From contig OZ237735.1 of the NCBI GenBank assembly GCA_965178125.1, positions 2,728,001 through 2,792,000 on the forward strand: a stretch of DNA of 64,000 nt. The letters are read 5' to 3'. This document shows, one piece after another, positions 1 to 64,000 of this stretch. The translations under genes were made by a program, and so were the position numbers. Source of the stretch: Bilabrum cf. latius (taxonomy: Eukaryota). Each line of letters starts with the position of its first letter. Within the stretch, counting starts at the first letter, position 1. A model generated the notes under the pieces. That model saw only the letters and a program-made list of their open reading frames with translations, was not told where the DNA came from and did no database searches.

Positions 1-2381
1 GCCACTCGCAGCTCGTGCTGCCTCGAAGCCGCCAGCTCTCGGGAGGGCCCGCCCAGCATTGGGACGGCCCCTGCCCGCATGCGATTGGCGGCCCCTGCGC
101 CATGCATGGACCCAGGCAGGGAGGGGGGGACGTGGGGTACATGCATGGCCCCAGGTCCTGGTGGCACGCTCGGTGCGTACTGCCTCTGCATAGAGCGCTG
201 GTGCTGCTGGCCCGTGCCCCCGCCGGTATGTGCGCGCAGCTCGGGGGGAAGCGGCGGAAACCCACCCACCCCTGGCTGGTTGTCCATCGGAGCTGCGTGC
301 ACGGCCGGGCCGCCACTGCCTGGATAGCCAGCCTATAGCCGGGCTGCGTCTGCCAGAGCCCCTGCTGCCGCCGCCGCCCCTGGGCCACCGCTCGACACTG
401 CAGCTCGCAGTGCCGCCTCATCCGCCTCCCTGCTGGCGCGCTGCGCCTCCATGCCGGACTGCCGTCCCACCCGCTCGATGACCGCCGCGAGATCGATCAG
501 CTGCGACCCGGTGCTGCCCGGCATGCGCCCTGTCCCCTGTACACGAGGCACCAACCCTGCCCCGTCCTCGTCCTCTCTAGACTGGAACCTCACAGTGCGC
601 ACCGCTTGCCCCGCTTCTGCTGTCTCCCGGCTGACCCCGAGCTGGCCCTCCGGCACCGGCACCCCGTATTTGGCCCGCAGCAGCTCTGAGAGGTCCTGCT
701 GGATCCGCTGCAGCAGGACACCCGTGCTAGCGGCGCGCTGTGCCTCCTCTCGCGCGGATTGAAGGTGGGCCTGGGCCTGCAGCCTGGCCATGCCCGTTCC
801 CGTGCCGCGTGCAGAGCCGGGTGCAGACAGCGGGGCGTACCCGGCAGGAAGCGCGGCACCGCCAGCGTCACGTGGCTGCGGGGCTCTCCGCTTGGATGCA
901 GCTTGTGCTGCTGCGGCGGCGGCTGCAGCTGCGGCTGCCGCAGCCGCCGCTGCCGCAGCTGCCGGATCGGAACTGCTTGATCCAGCGCGAGTGCCAGCAC
1001 CACTGAGCTGAGTGCTTCCTGTTTTGCCACTCCTGCCAGCAGTGGCCCCGACAGCAGCACCCCTGCCTCGCCCTTTGCCCCTGCCCCTGCCCCTGCCACG
1101 ACCTCGGCCACGCCCCCTGCCCCTGCTCCTGGTCGCACCGCCGGCTTGCTGACTGCGAGTCCTCGCCGCTCCCCGGCCTCTTCCTCTGCTTCGCACGGCA
1201 GGCGCCCTCCTCCTGGCCCCCAGCAGGTCCTTGATTGCCTCCTCGTCAGAGTCATCCTCCACGGAGGACTCCTTCTGCTCCTCGTCCTCGTCCTCATCGT
1301 CCTCGTCCACATCCTCCTGCCCGCTGGCCTCGTACTCGTCCTCGTCGTCCGCCTGGCTGCCCCCGTCCCCCCATAGATCACCAAGCACGCTACCAGCCAC
1401 AGAGGCGCCCCCGCCCCCGTATGTCCCATGCATCCCACCAGCACCAGCACGCAGTGCACCCGCAGCCAGGAGAGTTTGCTCCGGAGGCACAACCTGCTGC
1501 TGGGCCTCCTGCAGCAGGCCCTCCACCTCTGACCTGGGCACGCGGATGCGAGACGGGTCCCTCATCCAGCCCTCCGAGTCCCCGCCCCTGCTGCCGATGG
1601 TCCCGCTTGCGGCCCCCGTGGTACTTGCGCCGTCGGACCCTGCTCGCCGCCTGTGCTGCTGCTACTGCAGCCCGCCCCCGCCCCTGCCCCTGCCCCTGCC
1701 CCTGCCGCTCGCCCCCTCATCGCCATCACCGTCCTCCTCCGCATCGCTAAGCCGGAAATCAGAGTCCACGTCGGGCCTGTCCTCATCCGTGAGCCACGAG
1801 AGGAGGCTGTTCAGGTCATCGTCGTCCCCTCGCCGCCGAGGGATCCGCAGCGAGGGCGCAAGGGACGGGGCCAGGGAGCCAGCCACGGAGGCGCGGCCGG
1901 TGGGAGAGCCCGTCCCGGCATCTCGTAGACTACCATGCATGCCTTGCCGTGGCTGCATTGCGTTTCTATCTGCCTCATCTTCCCTCATGCGCCGCAGGAA
2001 CGCCATATAGTCCACTCTTGCCAAATCTACCGGCTCCCCCACGGACGCACCCCGTTGCGGGCTTGGTGCGCGATCAGCCTAATACCGACCAGATGTTTGT
2101 GTCACAGCTTGCCTGGATCGCCCGCTCGACCCTGGTGGCCCTCTCCGGCCAGCTGCAGCAGGTGACTGGATTCTGCTGAGCCGAGCTTCGCGTCTGGCTG
2201 CGGCAGCGGCTCGAAGCTACCTAGTTTCCTCTCTAGGATCGGGTAGTGCATCATGAAGCACCATTGGAACGGATTCAATCGGTACCTGATCCATGGGAAG
2301 CCGCGCGCGGGTTCTCTATGCGATCGAGCTGGACGGGGCATTCCTACTTGACTACGGGGGCATTTCTTGATTATCGTCCAT
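1..2381 (-). CDS. GON4L/YY1AP1/DUO3-like nuclear protein, 5' part (runs off the window start), TAG read as Gln
   Basis: ATG at 2381 follows an upstream in-frame TAA. One frame continues through ORFs 1662..2042 and 333..1565 to base 1, interrupted only by TAG. Motifs SIA[TAG]RTRARLPMDQVPIE, DYMAFL and RIRVPRSEVEGLLQE resemble GON4L-family blocks as I recall them. Confidence 0.6.
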
Positions 2382-2642
2382 AGTAGAAGGCAAGCACTAC
2401 CGGTGTGTATGATTTTAAGCAGTACCTGGCAAGACCATTTGGTAACGAGACGATTTCGTTCCGATAATCGAGGTTTTAGATTCAAATTTGCGATCCCCTG
2501 GGGCATTATCGCTCCGGGTGGGCTGTCTTGGCGTGGCCAGTGGCCACTGGCACGCGGTTGAGATTCCCGTGCAAAGGCAATGCCAACTTTCAATACCCCG
2601 CAAGCAGTGCGGCTGTACAATGTCGCATGAATGATGACCGCT

Positions 2643-2948
2643 TCACATCGTCTTGGACGATTCTACGGCGCGGCGCTTTACAGGTGGCCCTTCAGTCGAA
2701 TCGATGGTGTCGTTGCCATTCGCCCCAGTTTCGTCCTCCCTCGATCGTTTACTGCCTAGCGGGCTCTCTGTCTTTTGAGCGATGCCAGCACTGTCTTCGC
2801 CCTCAGCCGATGGCTACGGGTGCAACGATTTCGATGGACCATCCGTACCAGTCGATGACTTGGATGGCCCCACTGCGCCAGCACCACCTGATGCGCCTGT
2901 GCCCGTCGCTGGTGGTCCCGGGACCGCGCCGGATCCAAGCGAGGACGA

Positions 2949-2999
<51 letters not shown>

Positions 3000-4361
3000 A
3001 CTGGTGGACGACTCGTTCGTATGAGTAGGAGCAGCAGCAGGGGCCGGGGCCTACGGTTGAGCCTGTGCAGGAGGAGGAGCCGGGGATGGGGCACTACCTG
3101 CTGCTGGCATGGTGCTTGCTCCTGGTGCCGGCGGGCCTATCATTGCTGGTTCAGAGGGCGAGCTGGTTGAGGCCGAGGCGTGCGCATTGGTTGCTACTGC
3201 ATCAGCAGCATTCCCTGGTCCCTTGCCTTGCACTTGCCCTTGTATTGGCATGGCCGTATATGTCGAGGCGGCAGCAGGCCCAGAAGCAGAAGCGCCTGTC
3301 TTTGCCTTGCCAGCGGCCTGTCCCGTTTTGCTTCCGCCCTTGCTTGATTTCTTCTTGGAAGCAGCGCCAGCTGCAGCAGTCCCGCTGCTCCTGCGCCTGT
3401 TGCCACGACTGCTCTTGGGGGCATGCACCACCACGCGATGAGCTGGAGGCTTCCTTGCCTTGCGCTGCCGCCTCCGGAGAGCGATCCGCTGGGCTGCCTC
3501 GAGCCTGCGCTTCAGTGCAGCCGAGATATCGGCGTGCCGACGGGCGTACGCATCGTCCGTGAGGGCTTCCAGCGCGGCATCGACGCTCGCCGGAACCGGC
3601 ACTGACACAGGACCTGGGAATGATGCCAGAGCTGGCGCTGGTGCTGGTGCTGGTGCTGGTGCTGGTGCTGATGCTGATGCTGATGCTGGTGCTGATGCTG
3701 ATGGTAGAGCTGAGGCAGTGGCTGCTTCACACGTGGTGGCACTGCGGTCGGCTGCCTGCGATTGCGTCACATGTGCCGAGCCAACTGCTCCTATGGATGC
3801 ATCAGAGTTGACCGATTGGGTGCCCGATCTGGATGGTGCAGGTACCAGCACAGACACTGGCAAAGGCACACCCACACTGGTTGGCCTCGTTGCCATCAGC
3901 TCCTCCTCCGTGCTGAACAAGCCCTGACGGAGCCTTGCAGCGTCCTGCTGGGTCAGGTCATCGCGAGTCACGGCCTTGTTTTTCTGCTTGCTACTGCTGC
4001 TGCTGCTGCTGCTGTTTGCAGGCTGGCCGCTGGTGGACTTGCCTGCTGCTGCAGTTTGGCTAACTGCACCTGCACTGGCATCGGCAGCGTCCGGGGCAGC
4101 CGACAGAGCCTGCCGCTCTGATGGTATGCTGGCATCAGTGCTGGTCGTCGCGCCCACACCCTGACCGCGCTTGTCGCTGCCAGCCTGGCCCGCGTTAGCA
4201 GGCGGTCCCGCCCCTCGCTCTCCGGCAGGACGAGCGGTAGCCGGCTGCAGCGCGGCCGCTGACCTCTCAGTCGCCTCGGCTGCTTTCTCGCACTCGAACG
4301 TGGCTGAGCTGGAGGCACCGGTGCTGGTGCTGCCGACCGCAGACCCAGACCGTGGGGGCAC

Positions 4362-4396
<35 letters not shown>

Positions 4397-7300
4397 AATG
4401 TGCCGCACCAAGTCGGGCAGCAGCACTGCGAGCTGCCTATTGCACCTCAAGCTTGGCGACAGGTGCGCCCGACTGCGCCTTGGACCCAGAGTAGAACGAG
4501 TCCCAGGCAGTGGCCGGCCGCTGCCACCCTCCATGCCCCACTGTGCCAAACGAGGGCTCCGGGCCCAGCTGTGCCTCCCAGTCCACAGAGGAGCCTCCGG
4601 AGGCCACGGACGCAGGGCCAGCTACGCCGACGGCGCTGGGCCTGCCAGTATCACCCAGCCGCAGCCCGGAGTCTCCTTGTTGGCTCTCCCTAGACGTGTC
4701 ACGCGCGGTGGGCGTCCAAATGTCCATGGCGCGGTACCTGAGCGCAAGCCCGCTGCTGCTCGCGCCCTGCTGCGGGTCCTTGGGTCCACCGTCATTGGAC
4801 GAATCGGGGCTTGCTGCGCCGCCGCCCGTGGAAGAACCCATGCCCCGCCCCCGCCTATCCCTCTACCCGGGTCCGTCGCGGCCCCCGTGGTCCGACGCGG
4901 ACGAGACGGACCCTGCTCCCACCGATCCTGCGCCTGCGCTCGCCTGCCTGGCTCCTCGCTGGGGCCCCGGCAGCAGCCCCGCCCTTCTTGCCGCCTTGTC
5001 GAAGTCTCTGTCTCGGAGACCAGCCGCGCGCCAGGCCTCCCGCTTGTTCTCCAGCGTAGCGGCCTGGGCCTCCTGCATGAGCCGACCAGCGCGCGGAGAA
5101 GAGGCCGGCAGGGGAGTAGGCGGCTCAACTGCGGGGGACATGGGCTCCCACGCGTCGCTGCCGTCGCTGCCGCGTCTTCCCGCCAGCATACCCGGCCTGC
5201 CTGCGCCGCTCCCAGACCGCCGGCCTGGGGGAGACAGCGCGCCCGCCAGGCCTCTGCGCCCCACGCCGCCAAGCGGTTTCGGCTAGCCAGGCCGCACGGC
5301 CCCCACCCTGCCCCCAACGGTCGGGGCACCCACCCGCGGGGTGCTGCCCACAGGGGTGCCCAGCGGCAGGTTGGCCCCTTGCCCCCCTCGGCCCGCCCCT
5401 TCTGCTCCACTCTCAGAGCTGCCCGAGGGTGACCCCGCCGGTCGAGTAGCTCCTTTAGTGGCCTGTCGGATGCCAGTGGTTGGGCTGGCCTGCGGGAAGA
5501 AGGCAGACCCAGAGGCGACCGACAGCGGCAGCTGCACCGGCGGCGCCGTCTCGTCGCTGGCAGACCGCCGCGGGAGGCCCTGGAAATCGGAGCCGAAAAT
5601 ACCCCCATCTCCCCCAAGATGTGCATCGGGGGGAGCAAACGCTGCTTCCAGGGCATCCCGCAGCAGCGTCCGCATGTCTCGGATGGCACGCCTGAGGAGC
5701 GGGCGTGACCTAAGCCCCAGGGCCCCGCCAGTGATGCCGCGGGCGTCCTGCCCAAGCCCCACGTCCTCGCAGGCCCTGATCAGATCCAGGCACGTGGCTG
5801 CTTCTGCCACCAGCGGCCTGAGGTCCTCCCCCCCGGGACCCTCGAGCAAGAAACCCTCCCCTTCCGCCGACCGCTCCAGCTGCAGCGCCTCGCAGGCAGC
5901 CTCCAGGCCCTCGGACCAGACATCAACGCCAGTGGGCACCTCCGATGTCGTCACCAAGGTAGATGCTGCCGGTTCTGCAGTGCCGTGCATATCTGCGCCC
6001 TCGCTGGACCCCATCTGTAGCCCCAGCCCCAGCGCCAGAGCTGACTGGGACTTCGAATAGGACGAGGACGAGGATGAGGACGAGGACTCCGCGACAGAGT
6101 CATCTGATACTCGGATCTTCAGCTGTGGCTCCGGGCGAGGGGTGTCCGTGGCAGCCATACTGTCTTGCGGCGTGGCCAGCGCTGGCGGGGGCGGGGCCTT
6201 GCCTGTTCCAGCGTGAGCATCGTCCGAATCGCTCGCTGGATCTTGGCCAGAGTCCGAGCCGCCGGCCTGGCCCAGCAAGCCAAACACGGGCGGATAGGCC
6301 GCATCTGCGTCTCCAGTGTTTCTGGTTGTCGCGTCCGTGGGCTGCGCTCCCTGGCCCTGGCCCTGGCCCGAGCTTCGACCGGACACGTCCCTCCGCTCCG
6401 ATGCGGCCTACACGTGCCTCTGAGGCGCTTGCTCGCTGTACGGCTGCAAGGCCACGCGCATTGATGACAGCCCGCCAAGGAAGGGGGCAGCAGGGCCTGG
6501 TGCGTCCCCCACCTCGTCAGTTGCTTCATTGGCGCTTTCTGCCTTGTGACCCGTCCGACCTTGCTGCGGTGACGTGCCTGCATTATCACCTTCGGCTGCA
6601 GCCGTAGCACCTTCGGACGACAGGGCCAGACCCAGGTCCGTAGGACCGTCTGCACTTCCATCACCCCACACGGGCGACGCACGGGGCTGCTGAGGGATCC
6701 ATACTATGGGCCCGTCTGGCTCTGCGTGCGCTCCGCCCGCGTACAGAGGCAGCCCCGTGGTGGCACTCACGGCGACGCACGCCTCCCTATCACTGCCCCC
6801 GTTGCCGTCTCGTGCCTCCGCTCCGTCCATAGCGAATGGAGGTGCCTAGCTCGCAGGCGAGCGCACAGGGGGGCTACCACCCACTTCCCCGACCCGCGCA
6901 GCATTCTGACCCCCCTCTTCCTAGTCGTCGTCTGCCTCCATGGGCGGTTGCAGCGTCACTTCGCCCGCCAGTGAGCCCAGGCTGCGGGCCCTACCCGAGC
7001 TCACTGCCTTGTTGAGCGTCCTGGAGCCCAGCCCAGAGGCACCCACGGGCGGGACAGGCACCACGTCCTGCAGACCCACGCCCTCCGACCGAATAGACGC
7101 CTGGGAAGGGGTGGGTCGCAGCACGCGATGGGGAGGGCAGGCTCCGCGATCAGCACCAGCTGTGGCTGCGGCGGTGGCTGCGCCCGCGCCCGAGGATATC
7201 CCCGGTCCGCCCCGGGCTGCGGGTACTGGAGCGGCCAGAGAGCGAGCAACCGGGCCCGTCCCGCCGGCACCCCCGCCGTCTCGTTGCGAAGCCCCCCGCT

Positions 7301-18705: not shown

Positions 18706-18781
18706 TCATCGGAAGTTCGCCCGGATCATGACATCCTCGAGATCCACCGCAGCCCTCGCAGGCTCCTTGCCCCGATCGATC

Positions 18782-18813
<32 letters not shown>

Positions 18814-36120: not shown

Positions 36121-36208
36121 ATGATTTATCTGATTTATCTGCACAACAACTATCGATCCAACATTTTGTCTAAGCCGGACTGGAGCCTCCAGTGTACTAA
36201 CCATCTCC

Positions 36209-43406: not shown

Positions 43407-43446
<40 letters not shown>

Positions 43447-43656
43447 GGAGGCGCAGAAGCCGCGGCCAGTGCCACGGCCCCCTCCGTGCCCGAAGACCGC
43501 AGGTAGCTGCTGGAGGCATGGGTGGATGGTCGGCTGTGGCAGATCGCTCCCTCTTTGAACCCGCGGGAGGCCCCTTCGGAGGAGGACTTCGTGAGGCTGG
43601 TGCGGGAGAAGAAGGAGAGGGACCGAGAGAGGAAGAGAGGCGGGAAGGAAGCCTGA
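40741..43656 (+). CDS. TRM11: tRNA (guanine-10-N2)-methyltransferase TRM11-like with a long C-terminal extension
   Basis: Motifs SLKTRAFLGPTSMDPELALVMAN, DCIVTDPPYGIRAG and GGRIVYLLP. ORFs at 40807, 41116, 41458, 42634 and 42856 share one frame with 7 TAG; the first TGA is at 43654-43656. The start could instead be 40771. Confidence 0.8.
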
Positions 43657-50606: not shown

Positions 50607-53600
50607 TCAGTCTCTCGTCAGCCCCTTGATCGCATTCCCTTGCATCAGCCGCGCCCTGGCCTCGGCATCCCCACGTGCCCGTGCCTCCCGCGAGGCCTGA
50701 GCCCGCCGCCCGACGTCTCTTGCACTCGGGGGATCCGCCCTGGCCCGAAGCACCTTGAAGGGCTTGCGGTTGCCCCTGGCTCCCTTCCAGCTCGGCCCCG
50801 GCGCCTGGGCTGCCCTCATGTCGTCCCTCGCCGCCTCGATGCGAGCCGCCTCGCCGTGTCTCTCGATCCACTTGAGTCGGAACTGGGCCAGCCGCCACTC
50901 GCGCCCCTGCCACTTGAGTCGCCCGTCCGCCTCGGAGCCGTCTCCGTCTTCCTCTTCCTCTTCCTCTTCCTAACCTCCTTCATCCTCACGCCCACCCGCA
51001 CCGCGGCTCCGCATCATGTCCCTGCTTTCAGTCCCGCCTGCCCCCACACCGGGCGCAGACACGCCGTCCCCCGCCACCCGCGCCAGCCACCTCCACGCGT
51101 CCGATCCCTGCCAGCCCTCCAGCCCGTGTCCTCCCGGCACTGCCACCACCCAGTCGACGAAGTTGTCCAGGTCAAGCTACCCGGCATACTCGAGCGCGCG
51201 GTGCCTCCGGTGAGGGATCGGCTTCCGGCGCTTGCCCTGGCCCCTTCTCCCCTTGCCAGCGCCCCCGCGGTCTCGCGATTTAGTGGACGATGATGCGTCC
51301 ACCAGCGGCTGCCCTGCCCCCCCGAGAGCCTGTGACAGGCTCCCATCGAAAGCAGCCACCAGCCTGAGAGCATCCACGGGGGCCACGCGCAGGCCGGCAG
51401 AGGCCAGGGCCTGTCCCAGCTCCACGTGGCTGAGCACACCGTCACCGTCACCGTCCTGGGCCCGCAGCTTGCGCCGGAGCAGCTGCTCAGCCGCCTTGGA
51501 GGTCACCGGCAGCGACCTGCGGAGGGCGATCCTCAGCCTCAGCAGCCGCCCCGGGTCCATGGTGCCAGGGAGGGGCACCGCCCTGCCGACTCCCCAGCGC
51601 TCCTGAGGGGCGGCAGCGGCCCGCACCCGCATGTCCTGCAGCATCTTCATGGACTCTGCGGCCTCGGGGCGGGCGGCGGGCGGTGGCGGGGCCATGCTGC
51701 CTGCGCCTCTGCCGCTGGCGTGCAGGGGCAGGCTAGGGGCACCGGCGAAGGGGCGCGAGGGGTCCGTGTCCCAGGCCCCCCGCAGCTTGAGGAAGCCCAC
51801 GGGCCGTCCCGGGGGCACGTGGGCAGGCAGGGGCTGCTGCTGGGCCGCTGCACTCGACACAGTTGGGTCATATCCCTCCGCCACGGGCTGTAGAGAGGCG
51901 ACTGGTGGCTCCGGCAGCACCTGTTCCAAAGGCCCCCGGGTCGAAGACGACGATGAAGTTCTCGCTAGCTGTTGCGGCTAGGCTGGGGTGAGTCCGCCTG
52001 CCTCGTCGGGCAGGTCGCCACTTGCATCTCTGGATGCATCGTGGTCGCTGTCCTCGCCGAGCGTCCCCAGCGCCGCCTGTTCCCTGCCCCTCGCCTCCTC
52101 CGCTGCGCCCGCGTGGCCTACTCCGAGGAAAGGGACCCCTTCTTCCGCCCCCGGCTGCCTCCAGATGCTCACCGGCTGGTACTCGGCTGCACCCAGGACT
52201 CTGCGAGGAACATCACTCGCACGATCATGCTGCCCTCCAGCACCGCCCCCGTTGTCGCCTCGGTGCACCGCGTGCAGCTGCACGTGCGGGGACCCACCCG
52301 TGCGCGTGACGGGGCCAGGCAGCGCCGGCTCGCTCCACACGGGCCTCATGGCCAGAGCGGAGGGCGCCCCCGCCGCTTGCACTGGAGCTTCTTCTGCCCC
52401 GCTGGTTGACGCACCAGCAGACTGCGGAGCTCGAAGGGCCGCCCGCGACGGGCCTTTCTGCTGCCTGCCCTGGGCAGCGGGCTCCTCTTCCTCCTGATCC
52501 GCTTGGAAGGCTGGCACCTCCTCCTCCCTGGACCCACTATCGAGTGCCCCAAAGTCGCTCTCGCCCTCGCCCCCGACCTGCGCATCCAGCATGCGCCCTG
52601 CACCCACGAGTGCAGTCTCCAGACCCTGCGCCCTCACAAACGCCAGTCCAGACGCTGCCCCCGCCGCCTTGGCAGCTGCAGCCACCTCACCCTGGGACAG
52701 CCTTGCCCCGCACCTTTCCAGCACCGCCACCACGTCGCCCAGGGGCACCACCGCACCCTCGCTGGCGCTCCTGGACCGCTGACCCCCCCTCGCCCGGAGC
52801 GCCCTCGCAACCAAATCGCCCGCCTGGGCCGCTGACGATAGCCCCGTGCCCCGCTGCACGGCGCGCAAGAGGAACGCTGCCCCACCCATGCCCGCCCGCA
52901 GCGCCTTCATCTGGGCCTCGCTGTGCACGCGGGGCTTCCGCACCTCCACTCCACCGGTGGACCGACCCCCAGAGGACAGGATTCCCCCCGCGGCAGCCGC
53001 ACCCCCAGGTCTCGTCAGTCCACCCGCCCCCACGAACTCATCAGCCCCCCCTCGCCCCACACCCGTGCCCCTGCCTGCCATGAAGCCGGCAATGCCCCCG
53101 CGCACCGCCGCCACGTCTCCGTCGTGGTGCGCGTGTACCCCAGAGGGACCGTAGCGCAGGGGCGACCCGGGGGCTCCTCCCCGGAACGCAGCCCCCGCAC
53201 GCTCGGGCCTTGGCCTCGAGGACTCCCTGTCTAGCGGGCCCCGCATGGCCTCGTCCAGCGCGTCCCCAGTCGACACTGGCCTGGGCCCGCCCCTCCCGAA
53301 GGGCCCCAGCAGCGCCCTCGCGCTGCCCGTCACAGACCCCGGAGCCAGGGCACGGGCCTCGGCTGCCCACGGAGCAAACTGCCCCTGCCCCTGCCCCTGC
53401 TTCTCCTCGCCCACCACGGGAGAAGCGCCGGTGCCGTACTCTGCCTCTCTCTCCCCCCCGCCGGTGCGGTCCGTGGGCTGTCCCGCTGCCCCTGCCCCTG
53501 CACCTGCCACTGCAGGCAGGCCGGGCACGAATGCCCCACTGGCCTGGAGCTGGGACCCCGCAGCTCGCAGCCCAGGGGGCGCCTTCTTCCTGCTGCCCAG

Positions 53601-54303
53601 GCGAGGGCCCATCCCCGCCCTGCTCCCCATGAACTCGTCACTGCCACTCTCAAAAACGAGGCCCCCGCCCCCGCTCGTGCCGCGGGTGGCGCCATCCGTC
53701 CACGTGGATTCCTCCGCGCGCTGGATCGCCCCCAGCAGGCGGCGGTAGTCCACCACAGGCACCGCGCTCACCACTGAGGACGATCCAGCGCTCGCACTGC
53801 CAGTGGTGCCACCTGCACCCGGCTCCTGCCCCTGCCCCAATGCACCGCTTCCCGTTCGCAAGGACTCGGCCGCTGGCTGGGCTCTCAGGCGAGTGACTGC
53901 GCCGGCTCGCTTCGCCATGGCCTCGATCTAGTCCCTGGACAGATCCAAACCAAGCCGACGAAGCGCCGTAGAGGCTCCGCTGAACGTCACGGTGCCCGTC
54001 TGAGCCGAATCGAATGCCTGGAACACCGCTCTGGCGTTCTGGCCTGGGCGAAACACGCGAGGGGCGGCGTTCCGCATCACCGACACGGGGTCATTTCGAG
54101 CATTCGGTAAGCTCGGGGGTTGGATGTTGCTCTTCGAATCCTCGCCAGAGCTACCAAACGGTGCCACCCGGTGCGCCACACCACGAGCTGCATCGCGGAG
54201 GCCACGACGTCGAAGAGGTTGACCCTAGGGGTCTAGAAAGCATCTGCGGGACAAATTGATGCGATTTTAAAGAAGATCACTTCATATGCGGTATGTACCT
54301 CAT
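50607..54303 (-). CDS. Large low-complexity protein with EF-hand-like motifs
   Basis: ORFs 53928..54179, 51978..53918, 51177..51929 and 50607..50819 share a frame joined across TAG. EF-hand-like segments VFQAFDSAQTGTV and QDGDGDGVLSHVEL. The 5' end (ATG 54303 with a short intron 54244-54298) is tentative. Confidence 0.6.
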
Positions 54304-54844: not shown

Positions 54845-57800
54845 ATGGCGGCGTCTGGTGCTGGCAGCGACGATTCGGCGGGAGGATCTTCAGTCCCCCA
54901 GTCGTCTTCGTCGTTCGAGGTAGCCCAGAGCCGGGACGCGTTCACGTTCGTGGTCTTGGGAGCAAGCGGAGATTTGGCTAAGAAGAAGACGTACCCAGCT
55001 CTCTTTGAGCTGTACTGCGCAAAGCTCCTGCCACGCAAGGTGCAAGTCATCGGGTACGCAAGGTCCAAGCTGTCCGATTCTGACCTGCGCGACCGGCTAA
55101 GACCGTTTCTGGAAAAGAAAGCAAAGCAGCTGATGGAAGAAGACAAGGTCGATGGCTTCCTGGAGCTGTGCTCGTACAGTTAGGGCCAGTACGACAGCCC
55201 CTCCGACATGAAGTCTTCCATGGAGGATGCGTCGGCCGCGGAGAAGGAGCTTTCGGAGACGGGGCGGGCCAACCGCATCTTCTACCTCGCTGTGCCTCCC
55301 ACAGTCTTCGTGGATGCCGCAAAGACGGCTCGGGAGGGCGGCTTCGGCAGCTCTGGCTGGAACCGCGTGGTGGTCGAGAAGCCCTTCGGGCACGACGCGG
55401 CGAGCAGCGCCGAGCTGTCTCGGGACATGAAGTCTCTGCTGAAGGAGGAGGAGATGTACCGCATCGACCACTACCTGGGCAAGGAGATGGTCCAGAACCT
55501 GATGGTGCTGCGGTTCGCCAACGCCGTGTTCGAGCCGTTGTGGAACCGTGAGCACGTGAGCATGGTGACCATCACCTTCAAGGAGCCCTTCGGGACCGAG
55601 GGCAGGGAGGGGTACTTCGACAAGTTCGGTATCATCAGAGACATCCTGCAGAACCACCTGCTGCAGGTGCTGTCGATCGTGGCCATGGAGCCCCCGGTCA
55701 GCCTCGCGGCCGAGGACGTACGCGACGAGAAGGTCAAGGTGCTTCGGTGCGTGCCTCCCGTGCGGCCCGACGACGTGGTGGTGGGTCAGTACGGGGCCTC
55801 TTCCGATGGGGAGAGGAAGGCCTACAGGGACGGGAGCCCGGAGGTGGCGGACAGCACCGCGCCCACATTCTGCACGTCTGTCATCTGGGTGCACAACCGC
55901 CGCTGGGCGGGGGTCCCCTTCGTGCTCAAGGCGGGCAAGGCGCTGAATGAGCGCAAGGCCGAGATCAGGATCCAGTTCAGGGACCCGCCGCAGATGCTTC
56001 TGGGAGGTGCGCGGCCCTCGGTGGCAGAGCAGTACGGGCAGGGGCCCGGGCCTGTGGGCGCCGCCCAGCTGCAGCGACAGCAGAGCGGCGCCGACTCGAG
56101 CGACGGCGGGACGGTCGTGTCGGGGCCCAAGCAGCCCCTGTACGGCTACCGCAACGCCGCGAACGAGCTGGTGATCCGCATCCAGCCCGACGAGGCAGTG
56201 TACCTCAAGATCCTGTCCAAGCTGCCCGGCCTGCAGACCGCCGCTGTTCCCTCCGAGCTCGACCTCAACTTCAGCAGCAGGTTCCCACTCAAGAGGGCCC
56301 CGGAGGCGTACGCCCGGCTGCTGCTGGACGTGCTGCGGGGGGACCAGTCCCAGTTCGTGCGCACGGACGAGCTGGCAGCGGCCTGGGAGGTGTTCACTCC
56401 GCTGCTGCACCGGCTCGAGGGCACGGATGGGGGCCCGCCCGTGCAGCCGATCATCTACAGGTACGGCAGCCGGGGGCCGACGGAGAGCGACGACCTCATC
56501 CGGCGCATGGGCTTCAAGCGAGACGAGAGCTACGACGAGTCTTGGAGGCAGGCCACTGACCCGGACGAGCTTCGGCAGATGCGCGACTCTCTGCAGCTAT
56601 CCACGGGCACGCTGCTAACGCTGGTGAACCAGATGCTGTCCGAGATGGAGGCAGGGCTGGCCAGAGAGGACTCTGGATCCACCATGAAGATGATCTTCAC
56701 TCACATCCAGAAGGTGCCCACGGGTCGGGAGGAGGGCAGGTACTGGGGCGTGGACGTGGGTGGGTCCAACCTGAGGGTGCAGCCAGTGCGGCTGTCCCCC
56801 GACAGCAAGGGCAAGCTGGACGTGAGCGTGGAGGAGTGCAAGGTGGGCGAGGCCATCCCCGAGGAGGTGCGGATGGGGGACGCCGATGGCCTCATGAGCT
56901 ACCTGGCCAGCAAGATGAAGGACGGCGGCGTGCAGGACGGAGACGTGGTGGGCTTCACCTTCTCCTTCCCCGTGCGTCAGACGGCCATCGACGAGGGCGA
57001 GCTCATCGCCTGGACCAAGGAGTGGGGTGTCAGCGGGGTCGTGGACAAGCCCCTCGTGGCCATGCTGAGGGCCGCTCTCGTCAAGGTCGGCTTGGGCGGC
57101 GTCAAGATCGCGTGCATGCTGTCGGACACAGTGGCCACGCTGCTGGCGGCCAGGGCTGCAAACCCGGCGTGCGTGTGCGGGGTGATCTTGGGCACGGGCA
57201 CCAACGCGGCGTACGTGGGGCCGTGCGCCGGGATCAAGAAGCTGTCCGGGGAGCAGCGGGCGGGCGGGCTGGCCGTGATCAACACCGAGTGGGGCGCTTT
57301 CAACTCGCAGAAGAACAGCAGCGTGCGCATGCCGCTGACTCCCTACGACAATGAGATGGACGAGCAGATGAGCTGGGCCTCGCCCGGCACGCAGCGCTTC
57401 GAGAAGATGATCTCGGGCGCCTTCCTGGGCCCCATCTGCAGGGTCGCACTGCAGCACCTGGTCAAGGCAGGTATCCTCTTCGCGCACGGGGAGGGCGAGG
57501 GCAAGGGCGGCGAGGGGGAGAAGCCCAAGGGCCCGTACCGCCTGCCCGAGGACTCCCCCCTGCAGCCCGGCTGGCAGCCATCGGGTCCGTCTGATGTGCG
57601 CTTCGAGACTCGGATCGCATTTGACGCGGTGCGGGACCGCTCGGGAGACCTCATGTACGTAGAAAAGGCTCTCAGGGAACAGCTGCAGGCCCCGGGGAGC
57701 ACACTCAAGGAGCGCAAGATGGTCCGGGAGGTGTGCGACCTGGTGGTGCGCAGGGCGGCCCGACTCACGGCGGTGGGTATCGCTGCCGTGCTGCAGCAGG

Positions 57801-58267
57801 CAGGGACCATCGGCGGGTCTGGCGTGGACACGAGTCGGTGCCTGACCAAAGGGGCTGCATGCAGCGGCGTGGACGCTGCTTCCAGCGGGGCCGGTGCGTC
57901 CGAGGACAAGGGCGCGGAGAAAGAGGAGAAAGAGGGGGACGACGAGAGCATTTCGAGGGGCAGGTCGGGCACCAGCGGGTCCGTGAGCGGCTCCTTGGAG
58001 GGCAGCGGCCTGCCGGTGGTGGCGATCGACGGGAGCGTGTTCCTCAAGAACAGGGACCTGGAGGCAGCCCCGGGGGAGAAGAGCGACCGCATCGGCAGGG
58101 GCTTCGACCGGTGGGTAGGGGAGGCTCTGGGAGACCTGGGCGTGCGGTGCCGGCTGGTGGAGGCCACGGAGGGGTCCAGCCTGGGGGCGGCCGTGTGTGC
58201 GGCCATGTACGGGAGCGAGGCCGTGGATGCCAAGGAGGGCGCGGCGGCGGCGGGGACCAGCAGCTGA
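54845..58267 (+). CDS. G6PD: Glucose-6-phosphate dehydrogenase - hexokinase fusion protein (1140 aa)
   Basis: G6PD motifs [35 protein letters not shown] and [11 protein letters not shown] are followed in frame by hexokinase motifs [57 protein letters not shown] and GSSLGAA. A single TAG at 55181-55183. Confidence 0.93.
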
Positions 58268-58419: not shown

Positions 58420-60025
58420 TCAGCAGCACGTGTAGTACCGGTTTTGCCAAGGGTGCTCGCAGACGTCGTCGCTGTCGCGCACCACTGGTCCCGGGACAGA
58501 GTACGACTTGGCCTTCCACTCTTTGCCCCGGATGACCCAGCAGAGGCCGTCCTGCTCGCAGCAGAAGACCCTCACGTTCGCCAACACGCCCCTGGAGAAC
58601 GGAAAATCGCACTTCATGGTGTGGCGCAGGTACCAGATGCGGGAGGTGTTCTGCGACAGCTCGTAACCGGTGGCGCGCGCCAGTGCCAGCCACGTGTGGA
58701 AGCAAAGCAGGGGGAACACGAACGCCTGGAAAACCCAGAGGTAAATGTTGGCCCAGAAGTGCCCTGCATTCACCTCGTACCACTAGTTCCAGTTCCTCTG
58801 CTCGTGAAAGCCCGACTGCACGATTCCAATCCCCACCCCCATGGCCAAGCTCATGAGGAACAAGAACCACCAGAACCGGCAGTGGTTCCGCTCGCCGATG
58901 CTCGTGCCCAAGAACCCACAGTAGTGGTCAAACCCGTGCACCCACCTGTCGCTGGCAGAGCAAAAGTGCGCCCGCACAGGCACCCCGGGCAAGGGGGGCT
59001 CGCCCGGGCTGCTGGGTCGGGTGCCGACGCCTCCACCCTCGCCCCCGACAGCGCCAGCGGAGCGAAGGCTGGAGGTGCGCAAGCTCCCCGTGCTGGCATA
59101 CATTTCCCTCTCGGCCTGCCTGCGGATCTCATCGGGGTCCAGCCCGAGTTCCCTGGCCTCGAGATCGAACCTTCGCTGCTGCTCCTGATACTTCGCCTCG
59201 GCGCTGTGGGCCCCGTGCCCAGTGGCAAAGTCCCAGTCTGCGCCCGCGGAGGGGAGATGGCCCGCTGTAGCACCAGAAGCGGATGACGCCCTCGCACCCG
59301 ATGGGGCCGGTGCGGGCATGTCATCCGCTCCCGCGCCAGAGGCCGGTCCCGCCGCCCCTCCTCCGCGCGAGTCGTCCGCATACTCAGAGGCGCGCACGAC
59401 GGTCTCGGAGAAAGCCGCCATAGATCCGCCCTCGCTCGCAGATGCCTTGCTATCCGCCCCTCCTAGGCTCGTCCCTGCGCCTCCCAGGAGCCCCGCCTCC
59501 TCGTCGTCGTCCTCGAGGGCTCGGCCCGCCATCCTGCGCTCGCGCTCTCGGGCTTCTCCTAGCTCAATCGCAGTGGCTCGGTGACGGGCTGCCGTTGTCA
59601 TTCGTTTTACTTTTCTTCGAAGTTCTGCCTCAGCCTTGTTCAGGGCAGCTGCGATATGTTGCGCGATTCCAGCGTGCGTGCTACCTTGTTATGGTGGCAG
59701 GGCCAGCTGAGCAAGGATACGTGGTGGACAGGCGCACGGTCGGGCACTCACCGTCGTAAATATAACCTGGATCGGAGCCTTGCACCAACATAAACGCAGC
59801 AAGAGCCATCGCCGCAGTGAATACCTAGCCGAATGCCAAATCTGCATCAACTGCTCCATTTCTGCCGATCAAGTCATTACCTCGCAGCCTCCAAATGAGA
59901 AACATGCCCACACCAAGTAGACATATGAATATTGCTTTGTAGCAAAGGGCCTGTGCAGCATGGATTGATGGGGTATACCAAAGTCGGTTTCGAACGGTAG
60001 GGAAACTACCGAGGTGCACTGCCAT
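58420..60025 (-). CDS. DHHC-family palmitoyltransferase (DHYC variant); intron 59649-59751
   Basis: Two N-terminal hydrophobic segments, then SDPGYI, PVRAHFC..FDHYCGFLGTSIGERNHCRFW, further transmembrane segments and PFSRG..NVRVFC. TAG at 59825 and 58783 are read through; ends in TGA. Confidence 0.88.
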
Positions 60026-60230: not shown

Positions 60231-61028
60231 ATGGCGGACAGACAGAATCGCCATGCGTCCAAGGTAGGGGCTGGTGGGCCAGCGTCCACTATGGCAGCCG
60301 CCATGGACCTGAAATAGAGGTAGTACGAGATGGGACTTGAGATGTTCGATATCGACAAGGACCCGTACGTTTTTCGTAATCACCTCGGGCAGTTTGAGTG
60401 CAGGCTATGTTTGACGATTCATAGGACAATTACAGACTATATAGCTCACACTCAGGGCAGGAAGCATGCGGATGGCTTGAGAAAGCGGGCGGCCGTGGAG
60501 CGGAAGAAGCTCGAGGCCTTGGAAGATGGCGCTGCCGGGCCAGCCGTGCCAGGTGCAGGAGAGCTGGGTGGTTCCGCGGATGCTACTTCTTCGAAACGGA
60601 AACGAGTCAGGATTGGCCAGCCTGCGTTCTCTGTTGCCAAGTTGCGGGACCCTCGATCTGGTGCCCCTGGCCTCCAGTTCACCCTGGACTATCCTCACAT
60701 CGAAGAGGGCCTGCAGCCCAGGCACAGGTTCATGTCAGCTTTCGAGCAGAAAAAAGAAGCCCCCGACCGCAGATTCCAGTTCCTTCTCTTCGCGGCGGAG
60801 CCCTACGAGACCGTCGCCTTCAAGGTGCCCAACCGGCCCATCGACCGCGCCGGCGGCCGCCTCCGCACCGACTGGGATGAGGCAGCCCGGCGGTTTCAGC
60901 TGCAGTTTGTGTTTGCCCCCGAGGACAAGGCGAAGGCCAGTGCCGGTGCCAGTGGCACTGCCAGTGCATCGGCCGCCAAGCAGGGGGGTGCCTCTTCTTC
61001 TTCTTCGGTGCCCATGGTGGCAACTTGA
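60231..61028 (+). CDS. SF3A2: Splicing factor 3A subunit 2 (SF3a66/PRP11)
   Basis: Motifs DIDKDPYVFRNHLGQFECRLCLTIH..HTQGRKH, PRHRFMSAFEQKKE and LLFAAEPYETVAFKVPN. The conserved N-terminus (QNRHASKVGAGGPAS) lies upstream of two TAG codons. Confidence 0.93.
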
Positions 61029-62048: not shown

Positions 62049-62942
62049 ATGTCTTCTCTCTTCGACCCGGAAGAGATTGCTGCAGAAGATGAGAGGCTGC
62101 CCCTTCGAATGAACGTGGATGCCTTCCGATTAGGATGTTTGGACTCGTGCTCCGCAGGCCAGGTGAGAGTGACCGACTTCAGCATGCGGCTTACGGTCTC
62201 ATCATTATGCGTTTTGCATAGCATCCGGGGTGACGTAGTATTTTTGTTTATGTCGCAGGATTTAGTGGCTGGTTCATAGCTTGATCTCCCTGTTTGGCTG
62301 TGCTACAAGCTGGTGCGGCTCGGGTTTGCGTCTGTCAGCATCCCGCGAGCATACGCGCACTCCACTATGGTTGATCTCACGGCTGATCCGCGCTCTGTTA
62401 ATTTAAGAGATCGGTCTCCCTTTTTCTATCGGCTGATGCCTGCAGTGTGCCGGACTGTGCGTCCCGCCCACGCGGTTTCGAAGCTGCCCGACATTGTACG
62501 CAAAACTCTTGCGGTTAGAGCTGAAGACATCATGACACGTGGAGGAGCTGAGGCCCCAAGTGACGTATCTGGATTTATTGATTCGCTGACGAATGAGGAG
62601 CAGCTCGTTTTCCAGAAGGCGTACGGACAGGCAAGACGGGCTGCGGCTCACAACCGAGGGTACGGCAGCGAGCTGGCTGCCTCGGGGCTCGCCAGGGCAG
62701 TGGCCAGCTCTGTAGGTGCAGGGGCGGGCGCGGCATCCTCTAGCGAGTAGATGGCAGCGCAGGCAGCCGCGGCTGCAGTGGCTAGCGCCTCGGTGGGAGG
62801 GGCCCAGCCCGCGGGGAAAGGGGGTACCGCGCAGCCAGCCGTGAGCGGGGGTATGCTAGCCGAGGTGGCGGTGGGCCTGGATCCAATGGCGGCGCAGGCC
62901 GTCCGTAGCTTTGCCGCACGCAAGCGCAGACGAATAGTGTGA
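62049..62942 (+). CDS. PSF3: GINS complex subunit PSF3-like; probable intron 62163-62258
   Basis: FDPEEIAAEDERLP, DLVAGS[TAG]LDLPVWL, LTADPRSVNLRDRSPFFY and LTNEEQLVF match the Psf3 pattern. TAG at 62277 and 62748; ends in TGA. Confidence 0.8.
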
Positions 62943-63066
62943 CGAACATAGAGAACTATATCTCCTGACGAGTGCGAAAGTCGCATGGCATTGATGAGGA
63001 ATGCCAGCCACCACAGCCGTGCATCATCAAATGTGATGCACACACACCCTCTTTGATCCGCCTGCC

Positions 63067-63194
63067 TCAGTGGCTCTCCCTGGGCACATCATGCCCGCTG
63101 GCCCCGTGCAAGAAGCCCAGGTCGCACCCCTCAGTGGCTCTCCCTGGGCACATCATGCCCGCTGGCCCCGTGCAAGAAGCCCAGGTCGCACCCC
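63067..63194. repeat. Perfect 64-bp tandem duplication spanning the stop codon of the dehydratase gene
   Basis: 63067-63130 is identical to 63131-63194. Confidence 0.95.
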
Positions 63195-64000
63195 TCGTGC
63201 GACTGGGTCACGTTGTCCACGTACATGCGGCTGTACCCCCTGGATGCAACAGGGGCAGGGGCCTCCCACGCCTGCTTCCTCCGGGCCAGCTCCTCCTCCT
63301 CCACCTCCAGCTCAAGCTTGCCCGCCTCCACGTCCAGAGAAATCGTGTCACCGTCCCGCACCAGGGCGAGGGGCCCGCCCACCGCCGACTCGGGCGACAC
63401 GTGCAGCACCACCGTCCCGTAGGCCGTGCCCGACATGCGCCCGTCGCTGATGCGCACCATGTCAGTGATCCCCTTGCGCAGCAGCTTGGGCGGCAGGGCC
63501 ATGTTCCCCACCTCCGGCATGCCCGGGTACCCCACCGGCCCCGCCCCCTGCAGCACCAGCACGCTGTTCTCGTCCACGTCCAGGTCCTCGTCAGAGATCC
63601 TAGCTTCGAAGTCTTCCTTGCTGGAGAACACGACGGCCCTGCCGCGGTGTTTCATGAGCGAGGGGGATGCCGCGGCTGGCTTGATGATGGCCCCGTTGGG
63701 AGCCAGGTTCCCCTTCAGAACGGTTATGCCGGCGCTGCCCGACCCAAGCAGGGGGTCGCTCGCGGGTCGGATCACGTCGTCGTCATAGCACTCAGCCTCC
63801 GCCACGCTCTCCCCCATCCGCTGCCCTGATACCGTCAGTGCCTCTGGGTCGGGCAGCGCGCCCGCCTCGTGGATCCGCCTGAGCACTGCAGGCAGGCCCC
63901 CGGCATAGAAGAACTCCTCCATGAGGTGCTCCCCCGCGGGCTGCAGGTTGGCCAGCAGAGGCACCTGCCGGCCCACCCTGTCGAAGTCGTCCAGCGACAG
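63131..64000 (-). CDS. IlvD/EDD-family dehydratase, sugar-acid (L-arabinonate/D-xylonate type), 3' part
   Basis: Motifs MEEFFYAGGLPAVL, LKGNLAPNGAIIKP, GPVGYPGMPE, MVRISDGRMSGTAYGTVVLHVSPE and the C-terminal GCDLGFL..VPRESH. The 5' part lies beyond the window. Confidence 0.88.
   Translation of the reverse strand: MSLDDFDRVGRQVPLLANLQPAGEHLMEEFFYAGGLPAVLRRIHEAGALPDPEALTVSGQRMGESVAEAECYDDDVIRPASDPLLGSGSAGITVLKGNLAPNGAIIKPAAASPSLMKHRGRAVVFSSKEDFEARISDEDLDVDENSVLVLQGAGPVGYPGMPEVGNMALPPKLLRKGITDMVRISDGRMSGTAYGTVVLHVSPESAVGGPLALVRDGDTISLDVEAGKLELEVEEEELARRKQAWEAPAPVASRGYSRMYVDNVTQSHEGCDLGFLHGASGHDVPRESH

What the first reader, a model, noticed from the sequence alone, without database searches (positions are those of the whole stretch)
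1..64000. Non-standard nuclear genetic code: TAG encodes Gln while TAA and TGA remain stops
Seen in the sequence: most genes, including essential ones (SEC11, SF3A2, PSF3, G6PD, TRM11), carry in-frame TAG (roughly 100 in the window by my count) and no in-frame TAA or TGA. All 18 gene ends I could define use TGA (15) or TAA (3). Established knowledge: eukaryotic reassignments usually move UAA and UAG together, and a split with only UAG=Gln (NCBI table 15 layout) is rare, reported for example in the fornicate Iotanema. Inference: this GC-rich protist has a possibly unreported, independent UAG-to-Gln reassignment, which needs a tRNA-Gln(CUA) and an eRF1 that ignores UAG but still reads UAA.
Basis: partly seen in the sequence, partly recalled or inferred. 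Interest (0 to 1): 0.97.

Follow-up and report, generated by a model that had tools for sequence, protein, structure and literature searches.

The report
UAG read as glutamine, stramenopile protist
This GC-rich protist genome piece uses the stop codon TAG as an ordinary codon, most likely for glutamine, while TGA and TAA still end genes; this rare code variant does not seem to have been reported for this branch of eukaryotes.

Summary
In 18 gene segments (17,662 codons) there are 101 in-frame TAG, 0 TAA and 0 TGA. The two other frames of the same segments hold 96-114 TAG, 36-45 TAA and 282-305 TGA. Of 17 gene ends, 14 are TGA and 3 are TAA. Reading TAG as sense joins ORFs into 4620, 2998 and 1547 codons. 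Reading TAA as sense changes nothing.

Glutamine is the best reading:
- One TAG sits on the invariant Q of the SNF2 Q motif (Q in 120 of 120 homologues), and another on a column with Q in 93 of 120.
- TAG interrupts pure CAG runs.
- Near relatives have Q at 4 of 7 window TAG sites, E at 2 and K at 1.

Related organisms in public assemblies carry TAG at the same places. Two JGI metagenome contigs show in-frame TAG directly. Two gene trees place the organism among stramenopiles, and the G6PD-hexokinase tree places it next to Cafeteria.

Not tested: tRNA-Gln(CUA), eRF1, and UAG in mRNA. No genome is held, and the read-laying run gave nothing.

The code layout is known from Iotanema and some ciliates. 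The lineage appears new in the literature I searched. Verdict: new member of a known kind, high interest.

The parts
18706..32547 (-). Giant FG-GAP/REJ membrane protein gene: 4613 codons, 35 in-frame TAG, ends TGA
   Evidence: Pfam FG-GAP 1.5e-26 and REJ 9.2e-19. A relative's ORF fragments are 87-94% identical and align without gaps across TAG sites.
36209..40801 (-). SNF2/ERCC6-RAD26-like helicase gene: 1530 codons from the first ATG, 16 in-frame TAG, ends TGA
   Evidence: Pfam SNF2-rel_dom 2.7e-67 and Helicase_C 1e-19. 120 homologues were aligned.
39326..39328 (-). TAG at the invariant glutamine of the SNF2 Q motif (residue 492)
   Evidence: The column is Q in 120 of 120 homologues.
38147..38149 (-). 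TAG at SNF2 residue 885
   Evidence: The column is Q in 93 of 120 homologues.
37385..37462 (-). CAG-repeat (polyQ) tract in SNF2 with four TAG interruptions
   Evidence: The codons read CAG CAG CAG TAG CAG CAG CAG TAG CAG CAG TAG CAGx6 ATG CAG TAG.
4353..4409 (-). TAG directly ahead of a run of 9 CAG, 1 CAA and 1 CAG in the 2984-codon ORF
   Evidence: Codon listing.
40741..43656 (+). TRM11-like tRNA methyltransferase gene: 971 codons from the first ATG, 7 in-frame TAG, ends TGA. The first TAG, at residue 21, may lie upstream of the true start.
   Evidence: Pfam UPF0020 2.2e-08. 1533 representatives were found.
41008..41010 (+). TAG at TRM11 residue 90; a near-identical relative has Q here
   Evidence: P0393 reads KICEQVILCHK where the window has KICE-TAG-VILCHK. 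P0265 stops exactly at this codon.
43774..44082 (-). Last exon of SEC11 signal peptidase: 2 in-frame TAG (43834-43836 and 43783-43785), ends TGA
   Evidence: The PDB alignment to human SEC11A/C runs through both TAG to the last residue of the chain. An upstream exon with the SGSME motif lies at about 44190-44340.
48819..50354 (+). ADP-ribosylglycohydrolase gene: 1 TAG, ends TGA
   Evidence: Pfam 3.4e-42.
54845..58267 (+). G6PD-hexokinase fusion gene: 1140 codons, 1 TAG, ends TGA
   Evidence: Pfam G6PD_N, G6PD_C, Hexokinase_1 and Hexokinase_2. Fused homologues include Cafeteria roenbergensis.
58420..59601 (-). DHHC-type palmitoyltransferase gene: 1 TAG, ends TGA
   Evidence: Pfam DHHC 8e-17.
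60231..61028 (+). SF3A2 splicing factor gene: 2 TAG, ends TGA
   Evidence: Pfam SF3A2 7.1e-31. PDB human SF3A2 2e-62.
62049..62942 (+). GINS PSF3 gene, 3' part: 2 TAG, ends TGA
   Evidence: Pfam gave PSF3_N and Sld5 only below their curated cut-offs. PDB human PSF3 1.7e-05.
46345..47211 (-). GYF-domain gene: no TAG, ends TAA
   Evidence: Pfam GYF 3.5e-27. The sequence after the TAA scores as non-coding.
47273..48238 (-). Second GYF-domain gene: no TAG, ends TAA
   Evidence: Pfam GYF 7.7e-10..
33904..36120 (+). 738-codon ORF without Pfam hit: 3 TAG, ends TAA
2643..11597 (-). 2984-codon low-complexity ORF without Pfam hit: 17 TAG, ends TGA
50607..54077 (-). 1156-codon ORF without Pfam hit: 4 TAG, ends TGA
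14592..17588 (-). 998-codon ORF without Pfam hit: 3 TAG, ends TGA
3..2414 (-). ORF running off the window's start: 803 codons, 7 TAG
63131..64000 (-). 3' part of a dihydroxy-acid/6-phosphogluconate dehydratase gene: no TAG, ends TGA
   Evidence: Pfam ILV_EDD_C 7.4e-64.

Best explanation
The window is nuclear DNA of a GC-rich, intron-poor stramenopile protist, probably near the bicosoecids. Its translation system reads UAG as a sense codon, most likely glutamine. UGA (the main stop) and UAA still terminate.

Shown here: TAG is in frame in most genes, its positions are shared with related organisms, it fits Gln best, and genes end at TGA or TAA.

Inferred from established knowledge of other UAG- and UAR-to-Gln lineages (passages of PMC5304391): a tRNA-Gln with anticodon CUA, one mutation away from tRNA-Gln(CUG), decodes UAG but not UAA. 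The eRF1 N-domain has lost recognition of UAG while keeping UAA and UGA, which is the same codon pair that bacterial RF2 reads.

TAG makes up 101 of 886 Gln-type codons (CAG 629, CAA 156), so it is a minor synonym. In part it probably arises by C-to-T change in CAG, as in the polyQ tracts.
For: TAG is a sense codon:
- There are 101 in-frame TAG against 0 TAA and 0 TGA in 17,662 codons, and TAG is as frequent in frame as off frame.
- ORFs of 4620, 2998 and 1547 codons appear only when TAG is sense.
- The SEC11 alignment to human SEC11A/C runs through two TAG to the last residue and stops at TGA.
- A relative's 639-residue fragment aligns without gaps over four window TAG sites.

The TAG are not errors or pseudogenes:
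- Of 9 ends of relatives' standard-code ORF fragments, 6 fall exactly on window TAG codons, 2 on CAG and 1 on GAG.
- L001 shows TAG at the GAG site. L001 and L002, contigs from two JGI metagenomes, share three in-frame TAG in the TRM11 orthologue.

The residue is Gln:
- SNF2 TAG columns are Q in 120 of 120 and Q in 93 of 120. Two further columns are R/K/Q mixes (49/34/26 and 75/39/4).
- Near relatives (87-99% identical) have Q at 4 of 7 window TAG sites.
- TAG interrupts pure CAG runs.
- The share of flanking residues that are Q is 0.104 for TAG and 0.091 for Q. For every other residue it is at most 0.056.
- The column-profile likelihood over 10 TAG columns ranks Q first.
- The base after TAG is C in 41% of cases, close to CAG (34%) and unlike GAG and AAG (24% each).

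Stops:
- 14 TGA and 3 TAA end the 17 gene 3' ends.
- Sequence after the three TAA scores as non-coding (-0.15, -0.04, -0.03 per codon, against 0.14-0.36 for genes), and no TAA joins two coding-like halves.
- Tails between the last TAG and the stop keep a coding-like score in 12 of 13 genes. The 60 codons after the stop score 0.004 or lower in 13 of 16 genes.
Against: - Gln is not proven. Near relatives show E at 2 and K at 1 of 7 window TAG sites.
- In the JGI relative, TAG stands where the window has GAG (E) inside a fully conserved block, and where it has AAA (K).
- The ADP-ribosylglycohydrolase TAG aligns to E in 4 of 5 PDB alignments. The PSF3 TAG aligns to K. The TRM11 residue-90 column is R in 98 of 145 homologues.
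- The likelihood margin of Q over R is only about 1 nat on 10 columns, and the controls drew from the same pooled columns.
- TAA as a stop rests on three gene ends, in a genome where TAA is rare anyway.
- No tRNA, eRF1, transcript or peptide evidence could be obtained.
- 34 of the 101 TAG lie in ORFs with no homology support.
Confidence: 0.85

Rival explanations
1. UAG is a sense codon but encodes another residue, Glu above all, or Lys or Arg, rather than Gln.
For: Near relatives have E at 2 and K at 1 of 7 window TAG sites. In L001/L002, TAG replaces a GAG inside a conserved block. The ADP-ribosylglycohydrolase TAG aligns to E in 4 of 5 PDB alignments. R scores only about 1 nat below Q. UAG or UAR read as Glu is known in some ciliates and in Blastocrithidia (passage of PMC11687900; abstract of PMC12153298 in the listing).
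Against: The SNF2 Q-motif column is Q in 120 of 120 homologues and a second column is Q in 93 of 120. Four TAG sit inside one pure CAG run. TAG has Q neighbours as often as Q itself does (0.104 against 0.091), while E has 0.050 and K 0.038. Near relatives have Q at 4 of 7 sites, and two of their fragment ends fall on window CAG codons. E and K are common replacements of Q, and GAG and AAG are each one base from TAG.
Confidence: 0.07
2. The code is ambiguous: UAG is read as Gln inside genes but also ends some genes, depending on context, as in Condylostoma, karyorelict ciliates or Blastocrithidia UAA.
For: Only 17 gene ends could be examined. In L001 the TRM11 orthologue has a TAG four codons before its TGA, so the true end there cannot be told. 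The SNF2 tail after its last TAG has a weak coding score of -0.03.
Against: None of the 17 ends needs TAG. Tails after the last TAG keep a coding-like score in 12 of 13 genes. For SEC11 and TRM11 the tails stay homologous to human SEC11 and to the L001 orthologue. The SNF2 tail scores the same as the stretch before its last TAG (-0.07).
Confidence: 0.06
3. The TAG are not translated as such. They are assembly or sequencing errors, mutations in pseudogenes, or sites edited to CAG in the mRNA.
For: Editing cannot be excluded from DNA alone.
Against: TAG positions recur in independent public assemblies of related organisms. Six fragment ends fall on window TAG, and L001 and L002 share three TAG. 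The 101 TAG stand against 0 TAA and 0 TGA in frames that stay open for up to 4613 codons, which excludes decay. Essential genes (SEC11, SF3A2, PSF3, TRM11) are affected. From my own knowledge, U-to-C editing of nuclear mRNA on this scale is not known.
Confidence: 0.02

Closest known systems
Iotanema spirale (Fornicata) nuclear code: UAG=Gln, UAA and UGA stops (Panek et al. 2017, PMC5304391; search listing, and passages read)
   Same: It has the same layout: only UAG is reassigned, to Gln, and UAA is kept as a stop. The proposed mechanism is the same: a tRNA-Gln(CUA) derived from tRNA-Gln(CUG), and a changed eRF1 N-domain (T32G in the GTS motif in Iotanema).
   Different: It belongs to a different supergroup. 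Here two gene trees place the organism with stramenopiles. The Iotanema case rests on a transcriptome, whereas here only genomic DNA was seen, and neither eRF1 nor a tRNA.
Ciliates with UAG-only=Gln: Protocruzia tuzeti and two phyllopharyngean lineages (McGowan et al. 2024, PMC11687900; search listing, and Discussion passages read)
   Same: UAG alone is reassigned to Gln.
   Different: The ciliate affinity is not supported here. The window is a 64-kb, 62.7% G+C stretch with genes on both strands, and the G6PD-hexokinase fusion groups with Cafeteria.
UAR=Gln codes (NCBI table 6 type: many ciliates, Hexamita, Streblomastix, ulvophycean algae, Amoeboaphelidium; listed in the PMC11687900 passage)
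   Same: A stop codon is captured by glutamine through a tRNA-Gln anticodon change.
   Different: There TAA is also sense. Here there are 0 in-frame TAA, three genes end at TAA, and no TAA joins coding-like halves.
Uncultured rhizarian exLh (UAG=Leu) and Scotinosphaera (UAG=Ser), as named in the passages
   Same: UAG is split from UAA in a nuclear code outside the ciliates.
   Different: The residue differs. Leu and Ser fit the TAG columns here poorly.
Bacterial RF2 specificity (UAA and UGA, not UAG; passage of PMC5304391) and 'code 15' crAss-like phages (abstract of PMC9523058, listing)
   Same: The termination specificity that this organism's eRF1 must have is that of RF2. TAG=Gln is the phage code 15 layout.
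   Different: Eukaryotes have a single eRF1 and no RF1/RF2 pair. The window is eukaryotic nuclear DNA carrying spliceosome, GINS and SEC11 genes.

Membership tests
UAG-only=Gln nuclear code (NCBI table 15 layout) | In-frame UAG inside conserved protein-coding sequence | tested here: met
   67 TAG lie in 9 homology-supported genes. Alignments run through them.
UAG-only=Gln nuclear code (NCBI table 15 layout) | UAG positions correspond to glutamine in homologues | tested here: met
   Columns are Q in 120 of 120 and in 93 of 120. Near relatives have Q at 4 of 7 sites. TAG interrupts CAG runs. Q ranks first of 20 residues, but only about 1 nat above R. E or K appear at several sites.
UAG-only=Gln nuclear code (NCBI table 15 layout) | UAA is not a sense codon and ends genes | tested here: met
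   There are 0 in-frame TAA in 17,662 codons, against about 25 expected if TAA followed the CAA:CAG ratio. Three genes end at TAA followed by non-coding-like sequence, and no TAA joins two coding-like halves. The sample is small.
UAG-only=Gln nuclear code (NCBI table 15 layout) | UGA ends genes | tested here: met
   14 of 17 gene ends are TGA. There are 0 in-frame TGA against 282-305 off frame. SEC11 ends at TGA at the homologous C-terminus.
UAG-only=Gln nuclear code (NCBI table 15 layout) | A tRNA-Gln gene with anticodon CUA | not testable with these tools
   There is no tRNA in the window or in L001-L003, no Rfam match in the window, and no genome held.
UAG-only=Gln nuclear code (NCBI table 15 layout) | eRF1 N-domain changed so that UAG is not recognised | not testable with these tools
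   eRF1 is not in the window, and no assembly is held.
UAG-only=Gln nuclear code (NCBI table 15 layout) | UAG present in mature mRNA and Gln in the peptide | not testable with these tools
   The one read-laying run returned nothing. No proteomics is available.
UAR=Gln code (table 6 type) | Both UAA and UAG are in frame in coding sequence | tested here: not met
   There is no in-frame TAA, and TAA ends three genes.
Ambiguous stop/sense codes (Condylostoma type) | The reassigned codon also ends genes | tested here: inconclusive
   No sign of this in 17 ends, but the sample is small, and one orthologue in L001 has a TAG four codons before its TGA.
Stramenopiles, Bicosoecida-related (placement of the organism) | Groups with named stramenopiles in gene trees | tested here: met
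   In the G6PD-hexokinase tree the window is sister (SH-aLRT 99) to a 5-row clade holding Cafeteria roenbergensis, inside an all-fused clade of 28 rows. In the SNF2 tree it falls in a 9-row clade (95) with an oomycete and an ochrophyte, on a long branch of 1.07. These are two single-gene trees, with no rRNA and no phylogenomics.

The most novel reading that the evidence does not exclude
This is the first nuclear genetic-code change in Stramenopiles. It is an independent capture of UAG by glutamine in a clade of GC-rich, bicosoecid-like flagellates. It is old enough to be shared by lineages whose TRM11 proteins are only 64% identical. It needs an eRF1 that reads UAA and UGA but not UAG, which is an RF2-like specificity in a single eukaryotic factor.
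Probability: 0.55. Interest if true: 0.85.

Novelty: new member of a known kind. Interest (0 to 1): 0.78.

Why it matters
- **A rare kind of code change.** Splits between UAA and UAG in nuclear codes are rare. The passages I read name, for UAG=Gln, one fornicate and three ciliate lineages. A further, independent case in another supergroup adds a replicate for asking how eRF1 can drop UAG while keeping UAA and UGA, and how GlnRS accepts a CUA anticodon.
- **An unusual genome setting.** This case sits in a GC-rich genome where TGA is the main stop and TAA is rare. That setting differs from the ciliates that dominate the field.
- **A practical cost for databases.** Standard-code gene callers cut this organism's genes at every TAG. 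The public protein collections I searched hold its relatives' genes only as fragments that end at TAG sites. Its proteome, and that of its relatives in metagenomes, is therefore mis-annotated.

Tried and rejected
- **Read evidence.** Whether the TAG stand in raw reads and in mRNA is therefore untested.
- **Sequencing runs.** No RNA holder was listed. 18 rows in 11 studies hold the stretch or part of it, 7 of them half or more of its words. None was laid, so I draw nothing from them.
- **Whole genome.** None is held, so a genome-wide Codetta-type test, a tRNA-Gln(CUA) search and eRF1 inspection were impossible.
- **RNA genes.** ARAGORN found no tRNA in the window or in L001-L003. Rfam at gathering threshold found nothing in the window.
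- **Other collections.** A scan of prokaryote genome contigs for mis-binned pieces of this organism, using the TRM11 alignment, confirmed none of 62 pattern matches.
- **Earlier findings of this scan.** There was nothing for this genome or for the words searched, and one unrelated bacterial hit by sequence.
- **Uninformative TAG columns.** These were G6PD residue 113 (S 51, Q 11, N 9, A 9 of 120; variable even among fused relatives), DHHC (a loop aligned to DHHC20 only), TRM11 residue 21 (aligns with homologues' start and is probably upstream of the true start), and SF3A2 (E and L in human).
- **Rejected ORF.** The 1345-codon ORF at 54890-58927(-) is the antisense of G6PD-hexokinase and has no Pfam hit.
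- **EukProt source.** I could not identify the EukProt sequence labelled GECG01; a search found no paper. My recollection that it is a Halocafeteria transcriptome is unverified.
- **Supplements.** The eRF1 alignment of PMC5304391 (its Additional file 6) was not seen.

Full report
**What is in the window.** The 64-kb window is 62.7% G+C. It has no tRNA gene and no Rfam match. It carries eukaryotic nuclear genes on both strands:
- a 4613-codon FG-GAP/REJ membrane protein
- an SNF2/ERCC6-like helicase
- a TRM11-like methyltransferase
- SEC11 (with introns)
- two GYF-domain genes
- an ADP-ribosylglycohydrolase
- a G6PD-hexokinase fusion
- a DHHC palmitoyltransferase
- SF3A2
- GINS PSF3
- the end of a dihydroxy-acid dehydratase
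- five long low-complexity ORFs with no Pfam hit

No whole genome is held for the window.

Across 18 gene segments (17,662 codons) I count 101 in-frame TAG, 0 TAA and 0 TGA. The other two frames of the same segments hold 114 and 96 TAG, 36 and 45 TAA, 282 and 305 TGA. TAG is therefore not avoided in frame, while TAA and TGA are.
- 67 of the TAG lie in nine homology-supported genes and 34 in ORFs without homologues.
- 14 of 18 segments carry TAG.
- Of 17 gene 3' ends, 14 are TGA and 3 are TAA.

Because the ORFs were defined by TAA and TGA, the zeros are partly circular, so I relied on two controls. First, only TAG-as-sense produces very long ORFs: 4620, 2998 and 1547 codons, against a standard-code maximum of 1027. 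TAA-as-sense leaves the list unchanged and TGA-as-sense reaches 1133 at most. Second, no TAA separates two halves that both score as coding.

**The TAG are real and translated through.**
- The last exon of SEC11 aligns to human SEC11A and SEC11C through two TAG up to the last residue of the chain, and ends at TGA.
- Public protein collections hold fragments of the same genes from related organisms, evidently called under the standard code. A 639-residue fragment, 89% identical, aligns without gaps across four window TAG sites.
- Nine such fragments end on window codons that are TAG in 6 cases, CAG in 2 and GAG in 1.
- Two JGI metagenome contigs from a more distant relative (L001 and L002; TRM11 is identical at 459 of 715 aligned residues) show the DNA directly. 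L001 has four in-frame TAG, three of them shared with L002. The frame continues in conserved sequence and ends at TGA.

So at least three lineages share the trait. Assembly error and gene decay are excluded.

**Which residue: evidence for Gln.**
- SNF2 residue 492 is the invariant Q of the Q motif, and the column is Q in 120 of 120 homologues. Residue 885 is Q in 93 of 120. Two further columns are R/K/Q mixes.
- At TRM11 residue 90, a near-identical relative (P0393) has Q where the window has TAG.
- In the giant gene the relative has Q at residues 246, 626 and 3221.
- One SNF2 tract reads CAGx3 TAG CAGx3 TAG CAGx2 TAG CAGx6 ATG CAG TAG. A second TAG heads a run of 11 Gln codons in another gene.
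- TAG has Q neighbours as often as Q itself (0.104 against 0.091). The next residue is at 0.056.
- A column-profile likelihood over 10 TAG columns ranks Q first.
- The base after TAG resembles that after CAG, not GAG or AAG.

**Which residue: evidence against Gln, or neutral.**
- The relative has E at giant residues 445 and 561, and K at 1258.
- In L001, TAG stands where the window has GAG inside a conserved block, and where it has AAA.
- The ADP-ribosylglycohydrolase TAG aligns to E in 4 of 5 PDB alignments. The PSF3 TAG aligns to K. The SF3A2 TAG align to E and L. The SEC11 TAG align to P and to K or H.
- TRM11 residue 90 is R in 98 of 145 distant homologues.
- R is only about 1 nat behind Q, and the controls of that call are partly circular.

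E, K, R and H are the usual exchange partners of Q, and GAG and AAG are each one base from TAG. I therefore read these as substitutions of a Gln codon. I put Gln at about 0.85-0.9, given that TAG is sense.

**Stops.** TGA is clearly the main stop. TAA ends three genes, and the sequence after it scores as non-coding. If TAA were a Gln codon used in the CAA:CAG ratio, about 25 in-frame TAA would be expected; none is seen. I see no sign that TAG also terminates. Tails after the last TAG keep a coding-like score in 12 of 13 genes, while sequence after TGA or TAA scores 0.004 or lower in 13 of 16. With 17 ends, an ambiguous code cannot be fully excluded.

**Who it is.**
- The best hits of all tested proteins are at most 52% identical, apart from the fragments of close relatives.
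- G6PD-hexokinase fusions occur in Cafeteria roenbergensis and in many unnamed sequences. In a tree of 51 rows the window is sister, with SH-aLRT 99, to a five-row clade holding Cafeteria, inside an all-fused clade.
- In an SNF2 tree of 33 rows it falls in a nine-row clade (95) with an oomycete and an ochrophyte, apart from animals, plants and fungi, but on a long branch.
- Cafeteria is a bicosoecid stramenopile.

A stramenopile near the bicosoecids is thus the best placement. It rests on two single-gene trees.

**Mechanism (inferred).** From the passages of PMC5304391 read:
- A tRNA-Gln(CUA) is one mutation from tRNA-Gln(CUG), and it reads UAG but not UAA.
- GlnRS uses the anticodon as an identity element, so it may need to adapt.
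- eRF1 must lose UAG recognition. In Iotanema a T32G change in the GTS motif is the candidate.

None of this could be tested here.

**Known or new.** From the Discussion passages of PMC11687900, UAG-only=Gln is reported for Iotanema spirale, Protocruzia tuzeti and two phyllopharyngean ciliate lineages. The layout is therefore known. My searches found no paper reporting a nuclear code change in stramenopiles or bicosoecids:
-, from listings and abstracts
- a 2024 review of stramenopiles (PMC11412368), which mentions genetic codes only in a reference on mitochondria

The library lacks most subscription journals, and the runs that hold this DNA date from 2019 to 2025, the fullest holders from 2025. 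A recent description elsewhere therefore cannot be excluded.

**Verdict.** This is a new member of a known kind, of high interest to those who study code evolution. It also matters in practice, because standard-code annotation fragments this organism's genes.

Noticed in passing
window 54845-58267 (+): Glucose-6-phosphate dehydrogenase and hexokinase are fused in one 1140-codon gene. The same fusion occurs in Cafeteria roenbergensis and in about 30 unnamed metagenome proteins, which form one clade. A literature search found papers on G6PD fusions with 6PGL and 6PGDH, but I did not check whether this fusion is described (listing only).
   Followed up: partly
window 12089-12858 against 18702-19489: There is a 788-bp copy (96.3% identical, one gap) of the 3' end of the giant FG-GAP/REJ gene, including its stop codon. 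It lies about 6 kb away on the same strand as a 263-codon ORF. It is probably a truncated duplicate.
   Followed up: partly
window, all 101 in-frame TAG: The base after TAG is C in 41% of cases, against 34% after CAG and 24% after GAG or AAG. This may only reflect Gln-like neighbours. It could also be selection for a weak termination context. I did not test the difference for significance against CAG.
   Followed up: partly
window 40741-40801: The first-ATG ORFs of the divergent SNF2 (-) and TRM11 (+) genes overlap by 61 bp, so at least one true start lies further in. TRM11 homologues begin near residue 21-23.
   Followed up: no
window 46345-48238 (-): Two neighbouring GYF-domain genes, both without TAG and both ending in TAA, account for 2 of the 3 TAA stops in the window.
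   Followed up: no
window 58420-59601 (-): The palmitoyltransferase has DHYC instead of DHHC at its catalytic motif (translation).
   Followed up: no
proteins P0243, P0393, P0400, P0401: Fragments of TRM11 and of the giant gene from the 87-94% relative are all listed with a longest contig of 20,581 bp. This would fit conserved gene order with the window, but the contig itself could not be read.
   Followed up: no
window 2643-11597, 14592-17588, 33904-36120, 50607-54077 and 3-2414: Five long ORFs (738 to 2984 codons) are rich in Ala, Gly, Ser and Gln runs. They have no Pfam family and carry 34 of the TAG. Their function is unknown.
   Followed up: no
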